Source: Escherichia virus LS2
Direction: 5' to 3' (one strand)
Length of the DNA: 39,197 nucleotides
Sequence record: MN518894.2
Shown: one piece after another, positions 20,850-23,140 of the stretch
Layout of the letters: each line of letters starts with the position of its first letter
Numbering within the stretch: the first letter of the stretch is position 1
The notes under the pieces: model-generated
Seen by the model: only the letters and a program-made list of their open reading frames with translations
What the model was told of the DNA's origin: nothing
The model's database searches: none
Made by a program: the position numbers and the translations under genes

Positions 20850-20872
20850 ACTAAACTATCACTATAGGGAGA
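20850..20872 (+). promoter_or_regulatory. Phage-RNAP promoter (+1 near 20867), phi10 equivalent, closest to consensus
   Basis: gactaaactatcactata G ggaga. Confidence 0.85.
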
Positions 20873-20975: not shown

Positions 20976-22025
20976 ATGGCAAACGTTCCGGGTCAGAAAA
21001 TTGGTACAGACCAAGGTAAAGGCAAATCCAGTTCCGACGCTCTGGCGTTGTTCCTGAAGGTATTTGCTGGTGAAGTCCTGACCGCATTCACTCGCCGCTC
21101 TGTAACTGCTGACAAGCATATTGTCCGTACCATTCAGAACGGTAAGTCTGCTCAGTTCCCGGTCATGGGTCGCACCTCTGGTGTGTATCTGGCTCCGGGT
21201 GAGCGACTGTCCGATAAGCGTAAAGGTATCAAACATACCGAGAAAGTGATTACCATTGATGGTCTGCTGACTGCCGATGTGATGATTTTCGACATTGAAG
21301 ACGCGATGAACCACTATGACGTGGCTGGCGAATATTCCAATCAGTTAGGTGAAGCTCTGGCTATCGCTGCTGATGGTGCTGTTCTGGCTGAAATGGCTAT
21401 CCTGTGTAACCTACCGGCTGCATCCAACGAGAATATTGCTGGTCTTGGCACTGCGTCCGTACTTGAAGTAGGCAAGAAAGCTGACCTCAACACCCCGGCT
21501 AAACTGGGTGAAGCAATCATTGGGCAACTTACCATTGCTCGTGCGAAGCTGACCTCCAACTACGTTCCTGCTGGCGACCGTTACTTCTACACCACGCCTG
21601 ACAACTACTCTGCAATCCTCGCTGCTCTGATGCCGAATGCTGCTAACTATGCTGCGCTGATTGACCCGGAGACTGGTAACATCCGTAACGTAATGGGCTT
21701 TGTTGTTGTTGAAGTTCCACACCTGACTCAGGGCGGTGCTGGTGAAACTCGTGGTGCTGATGGCATCACTATTGCGACTGGTCAGAAGCACGCATTCCCA
21801 GCTACCGCTACTGGTGATGTTAAAGTTGCTCTGGACAACGTTGTGGGCCTGTTCTCTCACCGTTCTGCTGTGGGTACTGTTAAGCTGCGTGACTTGGCGC
21901 TGGAACGTGACCGTGACGTCGATGCTCAGGGCGACCTGATTGTTGGTAAATACGCTATGGGTCACGGTGGTCTGCGTCCTGAAGCGGCTGGCGCACTGGT
22001 TTTCACAGCAGCGGCAGCGGGTTAA
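20976..22025 (+). CDS. gp10A: Major capsid protein 10A (T7 gp10A homolog)
   Basis: Co-linear with T7 capsid (LFLKVF.GEVLTAF, KHTEKVITIDGLLTADV, NAANYAALIDPE, KYAMGHGGLRPEAAGA). Confidence 0.97.
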   Translation: MANVPGQKIGTDQGKGKSSSDALALFLKVFAGEVLTAFTRRSVTADKHIVRTIQNGKSAQFPVMGRTSGVYLAPGERLSDKRKGIKHTEKVITIDGLLTADVMIFDIEDAMNHYDVAGEYSNQLGEALAIAADGAVLAEMAILCNLPAASNENIAGLGTASVLEVGKKADLNTPAKLGEAIIGQLTIARAKLTSNYVPAGDRYFYTTPDNYSAILAALMPNAANYAALIDPETGNIRNVMGFVVVEVPHLTQGGAGETRGADGITIATGQKHAFPATATGDVKVALDNVVGLFSHRSAVGTVKLRDLALERDRDVDAQGDLIVGKYAMGHGGLRPEAAGALVFTAAAAG

Positions 22026-22288
22026 TGACCTTCAAGACCCTCTCTACTGAGGGTCCTACCTTGGAAACCTGGAGTCCTGCAGTGGGTGTCAGTATTAAGG
22101 TTGACTTCCCTGAGCTGGCAGATGTGACCGACTGGTCTCTGCTGGATGTAACCATGCCGGATGGTGTGAGCTACTCTCGTAGAACCAACAGTCTCTACTT
22201 CAAGGCCACCGATGCTGTGACAGGTCTTGTAACTGTTGGATATGACGGGTCTACCGTTAGGTCATTCAACGTTTCGTTCACAAAATAA
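21998..22288 (+). other. gp10B: Putative -1 frameshift site G GTT TTC (21998-22004) and 94-codon -1 frame extension (minor capsid 10B); alternatively an independent 87-aa ORF from ATG 22025
   Basis: Same heptamer context as the end of T7 gene 10A; the -1 frame is open from 22004 to the stop at 22286-22288. Confidence 0.55.
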
Positions 22289-22294
22289 TTGAAA

Positions 22295-22331
22295 CCCCTT
22301 GGGTGCCTTCGGGTGCTTGAGGGAAATTTTT
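22295..22331 (+). terminator. Late terminator candidate (TPhi-like): hairpin with UUCG loop followed by T5
   Basis: cccttgggtgcc TTCG ggtgcttgaggg (7 Watson-Crick plus 5 G-U pairs) then aaattttt; located after gene 10 as in T7. Confidence 0.4.
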
Positions 22332-22346
22332 GCTTAAGGAGGGCCT

Positions 22347-22913
22347 ATGGCTCAATACATTCCACTGAACGCTACCGATGACTTAGATGCCATCAACGAT
22401 ATGTTAGCTGCTATAGGTGAACCAGCAGTCCTACAGCTTGACGAGGGTAACGCTGACGTCTCTAACGCACAACGTATCCTGCATCGTGTCAATCGTCAGG
22501 TCCAAGCTAAAGGCTGGAACTTTAACATCAACGAAGCTGCTGTCCTGACACCTGATGTCCAAGACAATAGGATTCGATTCCTTCCGTCTTACCTTCGTGT
22601 AATGACCGCTGGGGCCACCAGCTACTACAGCAACATGGGTGGATACCTGTACGACCTGTCCACTCAGTCAACCACTTTCACCGACCCTATAACGGTAGAG
22701 CTTGTTGAGATGAAACCGTTCTCTGAGATGCCTGTGGTATTCAGGGACTACATCGTTACCAAGGCCAGCCGTGAGTTCAACGCTAAGTTCTTCGGTAGCC
22801 CAGAGTCTGAACTGTACCTTCGTGAGCAGGAAGCAGAGCTCTATCAGCAGGTCATGGAATACGAGATGGACACTGGTCGATACAACATGATGTCCGACAT
22901 CGGGAGGGACTAA
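22347..22913 (+). CDS. gp11: Tail tubular protein A (T7 gp11 homolog)
   Basis: 188-aa ORF at the conserved position. Confidence 0.9.
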   Translation: MAQYIPLNATDDLDAINDMLAAIGEPAVLQLDEGNADVSNAQRILHRVNRQVQAKGWNFNINEAAVLTPDVQDNRIRFLPSYLRVMTAGATSYYSNMGGYLYDLSTQSTTFTDPITVELVEMKPFSEMPVVFRDYIVTKASREFNAKFFGSPESELYLREQEAELYQQVMEYEMDTGRYNMMSDIGRD

Positions 22914-23140
22914 TGGCTAGTCACAACCTGAAGATTCACCGCCAGCACTTTGGTCCGGTACAACTAGGTCCAAAGACAGCAGAGCTGAGACTTAACGACA
23001 GGGACTTTAAGGTTGGCGATTGGCTTATCCTGAATGAGTGGGACAACGGGTATACTGGGCAACAGGTAGCACGTAAGGTTGTCCATGTGGCTGACGTTGG
23101 TGACATCGCTGAAGGATACGTCCTAATCAGTATGATTTAA
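22913..23140 (+). CDS. Small PUA/ASCH-like protein (DUF3850-type, 75 aa) inserted between tail genes 11 and 12
   Basis: Motif KIHRQHFGPVQLGPKTAELRLNDRDFKVGDWLIL resembles DUF3850 from memory; no T7 counterpart at this position. Confidence 0.6.
   Translation: MASHNLKIHRQHFGPVQLGPKTAELRLNDRDFKVGDWLILNEWDNGYTGQQVARKVVHVADVGDIAEGYVLISMI

What the first reader, a model, noticed from the sequence alone, without database searches (positions are those of the whole stretch)
21998..22288. Conserved G GTT TTC slip site and open -1 frame for a 10B capsid extension
The heptamer sits 7 codons before the capsid stop, in the same context as at the end of T7 gene 10A. The -1 frame is open for 94 codons and ends just before the late terminator. 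The extension ORF also has its own ATG overlapping the capsid stop, so independent initiation is an alternative.
Basis: partly seen in the sequence, partly recalled or inferred. Interest (0 to 1): 0.4.

Follow-up and report, generated by a model that had tools for sequence, protein, structure and literature searches.

The report
Capsid frameshift adds Ig-like domain
This T7-like coliphage (Escherichia virus LS2, a K1F relative) almost certainly uses the same ribosomal -1 slip site as phage T7 to make a minor, longer capsid protein that carries a flexible linker and a small immunoglobulin-like domain; this is a known trick in this phage group that is simply mis-annotated here as a separate "hypothetical protein".

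Summary
G GTT TTC lies at 21998-22004 in X XXY YYZ phase, with TTC the 7th codon before the stop of capsid gene 10A (20976-22025). The -1 frame runs 94 codons to a stop at 22286-22288, 7 nt before a T7 Tphi-like terminator. An ATG (22025) overlaps the capsid TAA.

The frameshift reading is supported by comparative evidence. The heptamer sits in the same phase in 14 of the 15 analysed relatives that carry this extension, across five genera. The extension ORF is always in the -1 frame despite several linker indels. No start codon or Shine-Dalgarno is conserved, and the window's ATG is absent in most relatives. The linker between the capsid stop and any possible start is under purifying selection only in the -1 frame (pN/pS 0.35 against 1.0 and 2.0).

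The predicted product is 10B: 437 aa, 46.0 kDa, against 36.3 kDa for 10A. It adds a roughly 20-residue disordered linker and a 74-residue Ig-like beta-sandwich (phrog_7473, no Pfam family, not T3's Big_2).

K1F itself carries a T7-type 48-aa tail between the same heptamer and terminator, so the extension behaves as a swappable cassette.

This is a new member of a known mechanism. No virion proteomics exists for this genome.

The parts
20850..20872 (+). Phage RNA-polymerase promoter (phi10-like) that drives gene 10
   Evidence: The core CACTATAGGGAGA at 20860-20872 is an exact match. Four related copies occur on the + strand elsewhere in the window. The 23-nt extent is inferred from T7 promoter geometry (general knowledge).
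20976..22025 (+). Gene 10A, major capsid protein (349 aa, 36.3 kDa), 0 frame
   Evidence: ORF list; Pfam PF21703 Gp10A-like, E 8.7e-106; mass.
21998..22004 (+). Slippery heptamer G GTT TTC (X XXY YYZ phase), identical to the T7 gene 10 shift site
   Evidence: It is the only copy in the genome. Codons GTT and TTC are invariant in 17/17 genomes and CTG in 15/15, while neighbouring Ala, Gly and Pro codons vary synonymously.
22004..22288 (+). 10B extension in the -1 frame: 94 codons plus TAA. Predicted 10B = residues 1-343 of 10A plus these 94 aa = 437 aa, 46.0 kDa
   Evidence: pN/pS is 0.28-0.35 in this frame against 1.0-2.0 in the other two. Matches phrog_7473, E 5.7e-35.
22004..22063 (+). Linker (extension residues 1-20, HSSGSGLMTFKTLSTEGPTL), predicted disordered
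   Evidence: AF2 pLDDT is below 50 for residues 1-4 and 8-16. Length and sequence vary between genera but always stay in frame.
22064..22285 (+). Ig-like beta-sandwich domain (extension residues 21-94; conserved VTDWS...RRTNSLYFK...YDGS..RSF)
   Evidence: AF2 block pLDDT is 90-93 with six beta strands. The top PDB fold match is the lambda gpV C-terminal Ig-like domain, 2l04 (E 3.5e-3, TM 0.54-0.56). BFVD matches include PP81 'minor capsid protein', BIG2 proteins and T7M gp10B. Invariant columns are listed.
22025..22027 (+). ATG overlapping the 10A stop (TAATG): possible lineage-specific restart codon for a free 87-aa product
   Evidence: SD dG is -2.8 kcal/mol, and an ATG at or next to the capsid stop is present in only 4 of 15 domain-bearing loci. 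By contrast the TAATG at 22911-22915 is preceded by GGGAGGG.
22031..22065 (+). Candidate RNA hairpin (apical stem GACCCUC/GAGGGUC, 22036-22042 / 22049-22055); role uncertain
   Evidence: Present in the MFE fold and at equivalent places in relatives, with different sequences. Against synonymous-codon permutations it is marginal here (z -1.81) and strong only in the Przondovirus/PP74/PcaP1EGY group (z -2.4 to -3.4).
22295..22333 (+). Tphi-like late terminator (stem 22296-22323, T tract after it) with CCCC at 22295-22298
   Evidence: The same AACCCC...GAGGGG-Tn hairpin starts 3-16 nt after the 10B stop in all 17 G/A-GTTTTC loci examined. In T7 a CCCC in this terminator contributes to frameshifting (Atkins 2016 review PMC5009743).

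Best explanation
Programmed -1 ribosomal frameshifting of the T7 gene 10 type. Proposed steps: (1) Gene 10 mRNA is made from the phi10-like promoter and ends at the Tphi-like terminator. (2) Most ribosomes read CTG GTT TTC ACA ... GGT TAA and release 10A (349 aa). (3) A minority slip back one base with tRNA-Val and tRNA-Phe on G GUU UUC (GUU to GGU, UUC to UUU). They then read CAC AGC AGC ... for 94 more codons and stop at 22286-22288. (4) The product 10B (437 aa, 46.0 kDa) has the complete HK97-fold capsid body of 10A up to Phe343, then a roughly 20-residue flexible linker and a 74-residue Ig-like beta-sandwich. (5) 10B co-assembles with 10A in sub-stoichiometric amounts, so some capsomers display the Ig-like domain on the outer surface. 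There it most likely gives weak, accessory adhesion to host-surface or mucus glycans. What is shown here: the sequence anatomy, the conservation of site and phase, the coding constraint on the linker, and the lack of a conserved initiation signal. What is inferred: that shifting happens in LS2, its efficiency, incorporation into virions, the role of the terminator CCCC or the hairpin as stimulators, and the adhesion function.
For: Heptamer, phase and open -1 frame. The same heptamer and phase occur in 14 of the 15 analysed loci that carry this extension, across Kayfunavirus, Caroctavirus, Przondovirus, Berlinvirus and Pektosvirus; PP81 has A GTT TTC. The extension is always in the -1 frame although the slip-to-stop distance (3, 5, 6, 7 codons) and the linker length (TDWS motif at extension residue 38-53) differ. 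That implies at least five in-frame indels, about (1/3)^5 = 0.004 if the frame were unconstrained (my calculation). No start codon is conserved in position: some genomes have none before extension residue 21 or 31, and SD energies are -6.6 kcal/mol or weaker (most between +1 and -6), against -7.3 to -12.6 for real genes. Linker codons 9-26 lie after the 0-frame stop and before the first candidate start in most Kayfunavirus, and show pN/pS 0.35 in the -1 frame against 1.01 and 1.99 in the other frames. GGTTTTC is unique in the genome. The confident AF2 fold begins at extension residue ~21, upstream of the GTG27 start used in most automatic annotations. The Tphi-like terminator with CCCC is conserved right after the 10B stop, as in T7, where it stimulates shifting. 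Curated records annotate the joined CDS: Peacock QEG09703.1 and CR8 10B, the latter with 'matches in mass spectrometry analysis', and Penshu1. K1F g10b::gfp gave stable fluorescent phage. Kvp1 10B was proven by MS with a shift at TTTTCA.
Against: There is no direct protein evidence for LS2 or for this extension type. The SH4 virion proteomics used a database without the extension. The PP81 paper treats it as a separate gene. The cryo-EM of Przondovirus H5 reports only gp10. No clear local 3' stimulator was found: local folding is not better than dinucleotide shuffles (z -0.83) and only marginal against codon permutations (z -1.81), and there is no SD-like element upstream. Invariance of the heptamer codons is partly explained by strong codon bias. 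The window does have an in-frame ATG in a TAATG arrangement that could support some restart.
Confidence: 0.85

Rival explanations
1. Independent translation. The 87-aa ORF (22025-22288) is a separate gene whose ATG is reached by termination-reinitiation at the overlapping TAATG. It would give a free 9.5 kDa Ig-like protein (a decoration or 'minor capsid' protein) and no capsid fusion.
For: ATG 22025 overlaps the 10A stop. The same TAATG arrangement starts a real gene at 22913 in this genome. ATGs at or next to the capsid stop recur in PE3-1-like, RDN8.1, CR8 and T7. Many GenBank records annotate a separate small ORF, sometimes as 'minor capsid protein'.
Against: The ATG is absent from most relatives that keep the domain, where the sequence is TAAcg or unrelated. 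By the cluster sizes, roughly 28 of ~170 member sequences start at this ATG. The SD is weak (-2.8 kcal/mol), whereas the TAATG gene at 22913 has GGGAGGG. The linker upstream of every alternative start is under purifying selection in genomes without the ATG. The ORF is locked to the -1 frame of gene 10 in every lineage. T7 has the same TAATG and makes 10B by frameshifting (Condron 1991 as cited). A free Ig-like domain has no evident way to attach to the capsid. As an extra, minor route in the LS2 sub-lineage it is not excluded (I would give that about 0.2).
Confidence: 0.06
2. Transcriptional slippage. The phage RNA polymerase adds or drops a U on the T4 run, producing a subpopulation of mRNAs in which the extension is in frame.
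For: The shift site contains a T run (TTTT, 22000-22003), and the CR8 record marks 'tttt' as the site.
Against: Four residues is far shorter than the homopolymer runs known to cause productive polymerase slippage (general knowledge; Atkins 2016 review). The conserved unit is the full heptamer in X XXY YYZ phase, including the G and the wobble C. That pattern is the signature of tandem tRNA re-pairing, not of a homopolymer. T7 gene 10 shifting is established as ribosomal.
Confidence: 0.03
3. Chance or non-functional. The heptamer and the open frame are coincidental, and the downstream ORF is not expressed as part of the capsid, or not expressed at all.
For: GGTTTTC is expected about 4 times per genome by chance. 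Local RNA structure is not significant.
Against: The ORF encodes a conserved, confidently folded domain found after the capsid gene in about 450 phage records and is under purifying selection. The heptamer's position and phase are conserved across five genera.
Confidence: 0.01

Closest known systems
Phage T7 gene 10A/10B programmed -1 ribosomal frameshift (Condron, Atkins & Gesteland 1991; reviewed in PMC5009743)
   Same: Identical heptamer G GTT TTC at the homologous Val-Phe codons a few codons before the 10A stop. TAATG at the stop. The extension ORF ends just before a Tphi terminator that carries CCCC.
   Different: The extension is 94 aa with an Ig-like fold, not T7's 56-codon -1-frame tail (10B is 53 aa longer than 10A), which is not Ig-like. 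There are six rather than three codons between the slip site and the stop. The terminator is ~290 nt rather than ~200 nt from the site. No experimental proof exists here.
Phage K1F gene 10b (type species of the same genus, Kayfunavirus)
   Same: Same heptamer, near-identical flanks on both sides, same terminator. g10b is treated as a -1 frameshift product, and a GFP fusion to it gave fluorescent phage (PMC6277420).
   Different: K1F carries a T7-type 48-codon tail (phrog_12582 'head protein'). The LS2 extension is unrelated to it in sequence, so this is a cassette replacement between the heptamer and TAATTGAAACCCC.
Phage T3 gp10B: Ig-like (Big_2) capsid extension made by -1 frameshift
   Same: A -1 frameshift near the end of gene 10 appends a linker and an Ig-like domain of about 90 aa to a fraction of capsid subunits.
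   Different: The slip site differs (C CCA AAG). T3's domain is Pfam Big_2 (E 4.2e-10), whereas the LS2 domain has no Pfam hit and no detectable profile similarity to T3's (hhalign probability 0.2%). T3's terminator lies about 160 nt after the 10B stop.
Citrobacter phage CR8 10A/10B, Escherichia phages Peacock and Penshu1; Przondovirus (KP32) and Pektosvirus (PP81) 'minor capsid protein'
   Same: A homologous extension domain, 39-80% identical to the window's in the protein alignment (Peacock 80%, CR8 47%, KP32 43%, PP81 46%), placed after the same heptamer. CR8, Peacock and Penshu1 annotate a joined -1 frameshift CDS.
   Different: KP32, PP81 and most other records annotate the piece as a separate small ORF with arbitrary GTG/TTG starts. 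LS2 and a minority of relatives have an ATG at the capsid stop, and LS2 annotates the ORF as hypothetical protein LS2_34.
Ig-like domains added to phage structural proteins by programmed frameshifts (Fraser et al. 2006/2007, as cited in PMC5009743)
   Same: A C-terminal Ig-like module, a flexible linker, sub-stoichiometric display through recoding, and a likely accessory adhesion role.
   Different: The domain is not in any of the recognised sequence families (Big_2, I-set, FN3). It is known only as phrog_7473, 'unknown function'.

Membership tests
T7-type gene 10 -1 programmed ribosomal frameshift (10A/10B) | Slippery heptamer X XXY YYZ (G GUU UUC) in the 0-frame phase near the 3' end of the major capsid gene | tested here: met
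   21998-22004, phase confirmed; homologous to the T7 Val-Phe codons.
T7-type gene 10 -1 programmed ribosomal frameshift (10A/10B) | -1 frame open from the slip site past the 0-frame stop, encoding a C-terminal extension | tested here: met
   Open 21983-22288, 94 codons after the shift. Also open in all 15 domain-bearing loci.
T7-type gene 10 -1 programmed ribosomal frameshift (10A/10B) | The extension depends on upstream translation: no conserved initiation signal of its own, and coding constraint extends upstream of any start codon | tested here: met
   Start-codon and SD survey. Linker pN/pS 0.35 in the -1 frame against 1.01 and 1.99.
T7-type gene 10 -1 programmed ribosomal frameshift (10A/10B) | Distal 3' stimulator: CCCC in the Tphi terminator downstream of the 10B stop | tested here: inconclusive
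   The terminator with CCCC is present (22295-22323) and conserved in all G/A-GTTTTC loci examined. Whether it stimulates shifting cannot be tested computationally.
T7-type gene 10 -1 programmed ribosomal frameshift (10A/10B) | Two capsid species with a common N-terminus in virions, and a junction peptide that spans the shift | not testable with these tools
   No proteomics exists for LS2. Indirect support comes from relatives only: the CR8 annotation note, K1F g10b::gfp, and Kvp1 MS.
Frameshift-appended Ig-like domains on phage structural proteins | Ig-like beta-sandwich fold in the extension | tested here: met
   This rests on a predicted model only. AF2 pLDDT is 90-93 over residues 21-94. 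The best fold matches are Ig-like domains (lambda gpV C-terminal domain 2l04, filamin repeats, BIG2 proteins), but the scores are modest (E 3.5e-3, TM ~0.55).
Frameshift-appended Ig-like domains on phage structural proteins | Membership in a recognised Ig-like sequence family (Pfam Big_2, I-set or FN3) | tested here: not met
   No Pfam hit at E <= 1 for the LS2, KP32, PP81 or CR8 extensions. hhalign against the T3 Big_2 extension gives probability 0.2%. No PDB sequence relative was found.
Translationally coupled small gene (termination-reinitiation at overlapping UAAUG) | Conserved start codon overlapping or adjacent to the upstream stop, usually with an SD inside the upstream gene | tested here: not met
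   The ATG is present in 4 of 15 domain-bearing loci, with SD -2.8 kcal/mol. A true coupled gene in the same genome has GGGAGGG before its TAATG.

The most novel reading that the evidence does not exclude
The conserved pair 'G GTT TTC heptamer plus Tphi terminator' may act as a portable display socket. Unrelated C-terminal modules would be exchanged as cassettes by recombination between these two conserved flanks, with the recoding signals (slip site and distal terminator element) staying outside the cassette so that any insert is displayed at a set low ratio. The modules seen are the T7/K1F-type tail and the unclassified Ig-like phrog_7473 domain found here. In the LS2 sub-lineage a UAAUG restart codon might add a second, free form of the Ig-like domain. 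The hairpin 13-25 nt downstream of the heptamer (25 nt in the Kayfunavirus genomes), strongly supported only in Przondovirus-type genomes, could be an unusually distant stimulator.
Probability: 0.25. Interest if true: 0.45.

Novelty: new member of a known kind. Interest (0 to 1): 0.25.

Why it matters
The practical value is in annotation and phage engineering. Hundreds of Kayfunavirus, Przondovirus and related therapeutic-candidate phage genomes list this piece as a 54-87 aa 'hypothetical protein' with arbitrary start codons. It is very probably the C-terminus of a frameshifted capsid protein that puts an Ig-like domain on the virion surface. That bears on virion proteomics databases, immunogenicity, possible mucus or host-surface adherence, and the choice of capsid-display sites (as already used in T7 and K1F). 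The finding also adds a third, sequence-unclassified extension module to the gene 10 frameshift system. It shows that modules are exchanged between the conserved slip site and the conserved terminator. It does not reveal a new mechanism.

Tried and rejected
- Pfam on the extension from LS2, KP32, PP81 and CR8: no family.
- PDB sequence searches with the single sequence and with the family profile: only noise.
- Rfam on 21800-22450 at E <= 1: nothing.
- Search for natural in-frame capsid-domain fusions among 1.84 billion representatives: the full domain appears only as short stand-alone ORF calls. The many long hits match just a ~22-residue beta-hairpin repeat and were discarded as spurious. 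Clustering at 50% identity could hide fusions, so absence is not proven.
- The search for related loci in IMG/VR: only two close relatives.
- Local 3' stimulatory structure: the 116-nt fold is no better than dinucleotide shuffles (z -0.83). Alifold consensus structures differ between groups. The codon-permutation test is significant only for Przondovirus, PP74 and PcaP1EGY. I therefore do not claim a stimulator for LS2.
- I considered whether the hairpin tracks the 0-frame stop rather than the heptamer, for example through ribosome queuing. In the Przondovirus group the distance to the heptamer is constant (19 nt) while the distance to the stop varies (+4 or +10), so I dropped the idea.
- I looked by eye at possible pairing of the terminator AACCC with GGGTT at 22019-22023. 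It is only 5 bp and is absent in Przondovirus, so I did not pursue it.
- Literature: SH4 proteomics is uninformative because the database lacked the ORF. The CR8 genome announcement has no text on 10B. The H5 cryo-EM paper does not mention the extension. The primary T7 paper PMC209055 is not held.
Full report
**What the window is.** The 39,197-bp window is a complete T7-like podophage genome of the genus Kayfunavirus (K1F-like). The capsid region is 99.4% identical to Escherichia virus LS3. The 87-aa ORF is recorded as 'hypothetical protein LS2_34 [Escherichia virus LS2]' on a contig of exactly 39,197 bp.

**Check of the observation.**
- Gene 10A is 20976-22025 (349 aa; Pfam Gp10A-like, E 8.7e-106). 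It is preceded by a phage promoter whose core lies at 20860-20872.
- The sequence ...GCA CTG GTT TTC ACA GCA GCG GCA GCG GGT TAA places G GTT TTC at 21998-22004 in X XXY YYZ phase. TTC is the seventh codon before the stop.
- After a -1 slip the reading frame continues CAC AGC AGC GGC AGC GGG TTA ATG ACC ... for 94 codons to TAA at 22286-22288.
- The -1 frame is closed upstream of 21983, so a productive shift must occur within about 14 codons. The heptamer is the only slippery motif in that stretch.
- ATG 22025-22027 overlaps the 10A stop (TAATG).
- A terminator stem at 22296-22323 follows the extension stop by 7 nt.
- GGTTTTC occurs once in the genome on either strand, against about 4 expected. 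Its mere presence is therefore not remarkable, but its position and phase are. From the density I estimate about 7e-4 in-phase copies expected in the permissive stretch.

All elements of the finding are confirmed.

**Comparative test of frameshift against independent initiation.** I collected the homologous region from 17 other phages.
- tblastn with the 94-aa extension finds it directly after the capsid gene in 454 phage records. These are Kayfunavirus, Caroctavirus CR8, Przondovirus/KP32-like, Berlinvirus PP74 and Pektosvirus. Many matches begin at query residues 1-4, which is upstream of the ATG.
- In 14 of the 15 loci that carry this domain, G GTT TTC is present at the same capsid codons and in the same phase. 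PP81 has A GTT TTC.
- The domain ORF is in the -1 frame of gene 10 in every case. This holds although the slip-to-stop distance is 3, 5, 6 or 7 codons and the linker length varies (the TDWS motif sits at extension residue 38, 39, 41, 42 or 53). At least five indel events therefore preserved the frame.
- No start codon is conserved. The ATG at the capsid stop occurs in only four of the 15 loci. Most Kayfunavirus read TAAcg, which gives Thr. One genome has no ATG/GTG/TTG before extension residue 31 and another none before residue 21.
- Predicted SD pairing is -6.6 kcal/mol or weaker everywhere (most between +1 and -6) and -2.8 for the window's ATG. Genes 9-12 of the window give -7.3 to -12.6.
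- As an internal control, a genuine small gene after gene 11 also starts in a TAATG overlap, but it has GGGAGGG immediately upstream.
- Gene callers start this ORF inconsistently, giving products of 87, 75, 68, 64 and 54 aa.

**Selection.** I ran a Nei-Gojobori analysis over seven Kayfunavirus genomes.
- Linker codons 9-26 lie after the 0-frame stop and before the first candidate start in genomes that lack the ATG. They show pN/pS 0.35 in the -1 frame, against 1.01 and 1.99 in the other two frames.
- The domain (codons 27-94) gives 0.28, against 1.40 and 1.86.
- The linker is therefore translated in genomes that have no start codon ahead of it. That requires ribosomes arriving from gene 10 in the -1 frame.
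- The heptamer codons are invariant (GTT 17/17, TTC 17/17, CTG 15/15), while adjacent Ala, Gly and Pro codons vary synonymously. Strong codon bias weakens this argument.

**The product.**
- 10B is predicted to be 437 aa and 46.0 kDa, against 36.3 kDa for 10A. A free 87-aa product would be 9.5 kDa.
- AlphaFold2 on the extension gives a disordered segment of about 20 residues, then a confident six-strand beta domain with block pLDDT 90-93.
- Foldseek's best PDB match is the C-terminal Ig-like domain of the lambda tail tube protein (2l04; E 3.5e-3, TM ~0.55), followed by filamin-type Ig repeats. In BFVD the best matches are the PP81 'minor capsid protein', BIG2 proteins and T7M gp10B.
- By sequence the domain belongs to no Pfam family, has no PDB relative, and matches only phrog_7473, 'unknown function'.
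- It is not detectably related to T3's extension, which is a clear Big_2 domain.

**Signals around the site.**
- All phages with the GTTTTC site have a Tphi-like hairpin (AACCCCTTGGG...CTTGAGGGG-Tn) starting 3-16 nt after the 10B stop. In T7 a CCCC in this terminator, more than 200 nt from the site, is involved in frameshifting (Atkins et al. 2016, PMC5009743). The element is present here at 22295-22298, but its role is untested.
- A hairpin lies 13-25 nt downstream of the heptamer in most of these genomes.
- Against synonymous-codon permutations this hairpin is significant in Przondovirus, PP74 and PcaP1EGY (z -2.4 to -3.4), marginal in LS2 and T7 (z about -1.8), and absent in Peacock-type Kayfunavirus. 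I do not claim it as a stimulator for LS2.
- Rfam has nothing here.

**Relation to known systems.** This is the T7 gene 10A/10B recoding event.
- T7 has the identical heptamer at the homologous codons and even the same TAATG.
- The type species of the same genus, K1F, has the heptamer and the terminator but a T7-type 48-codon tail (phrog_12582). LS2 and K1F are near-identical up to the heptamer and again from TAATTGAAACCCC onward, and unrelated in between. The extension is thus a cassette exchanged between two conserved flanks.
- K1F g10b is treated as a -1 frameshift product, and a C-terminal GFP fusion to it produced stable fluorescent phage (PMC6277420).
- Kvp1 10B was proven by mass spectrometry with a shift at TTTTCA (PMC2579914).
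- T3 appends an Ig-like Big_2 domain through a different site, C CCA AAG.
- Curated records for close relatives already join the two frames: Peacock, CR8 with a note of MS matches, and Penshu1 (PMC6753287).
- Other work treats the piece as a separate 'minor capsid protein' gene (PMC7693777).
- I found no direct proteomic or structural demonstration for this extension type.

**Verdict.**
- Independent initiation at the overlapping ATG cannot be the conserved mechanism. At most it is a minor, lineage-specific extra route.
- Transcriptional slippage and chance are unlikely.
- The finding is a new member of a well-known kind, and is effectively already annotated in some sister genomes. It has modest added interest: an unclassified Ig-like module and clear cassette exchange at a conserved recoding site.
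- Interest 0.25.

Noticed in passing
window 22913-23140 (+): A 75-aa ORF sits between tail tubular genes 11 and 12. It is a DUF3850/ASCH-like protein (Pfam DUF3850 E 3.7e-19; phrog_986 'RNA-binding protein' E 2.2e-34). It starts in a TAATG overlap with gene 11 and has a strong SD (GGGAGGG). Kosakonia phage Kc166A has an ORF in the same place. It is an odd passenger in the middle of the structural module.
   Followed up: partly
window 22296-22333 compared with L001-L015 and L017: The LS2 Tphi-like terminator has an altered 3' side...CTTGAGGGAAATTTTTGC, where all relatives examined have ...CTTGAGGGGTTTTTTTGC. This shortens the stem (12 pairs against about 17) and interrupts the U tract. It could weaken termination, or the proposed distal frameshift element.
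   Followed up: no
window 21998-22288 compared with L004 (K1F) 1359-1511: Within one genus the 10B extension is swapped as a cassette. K1F has a T7-like 48-codon tail and LS2 a 94-codon Ig-like module. The two are near-identical up to the heptamer and again from TAATTGAAACCCC onward.
   Followed up: partly
whole window, both strands: GGTTTTC occurs only once in 39 kb, against 4.1 +/- 2.1 expected from shuffles. This is compatible with avoidance of this slippery motif elsewhere, but it is not significant on its own.
   Followed up: no
L008, L012, L013, L015 (Przondovirus/PP74), 19 nt after the heptamer: A strong 43-nt hairpin (dG -19 to -27 kcal/mol) with compensatory changes in its apical stem (GACGG/CCGTC, GGTGG/CCACC, GGCGG/CCGTC). 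It is far more stable than synonymous-codon permutations (z -2.4 to -3.4). The 19-nt spacer is longer than in classical -1 frameshift stimulators.
   Followed up: partly
L010 (Escherichia phage RDN8.1) 623-1419: The deposited record splits the major capsid gene into two CDSs (623-1084 and 1084-1419). This is probably a sequencing or assembly indel rather than biology.
   Followed up: no
one search hits P0026-P0107: A profile of the extension domain picks up many long repetitive proteins through a ~22-residue stretch (NSLYFKAT...G..V.V), matched 3-21 times per protein. This looks like a generic beta-hairpin or propeller-blade resemblance rather than homology.
   Followed up: no
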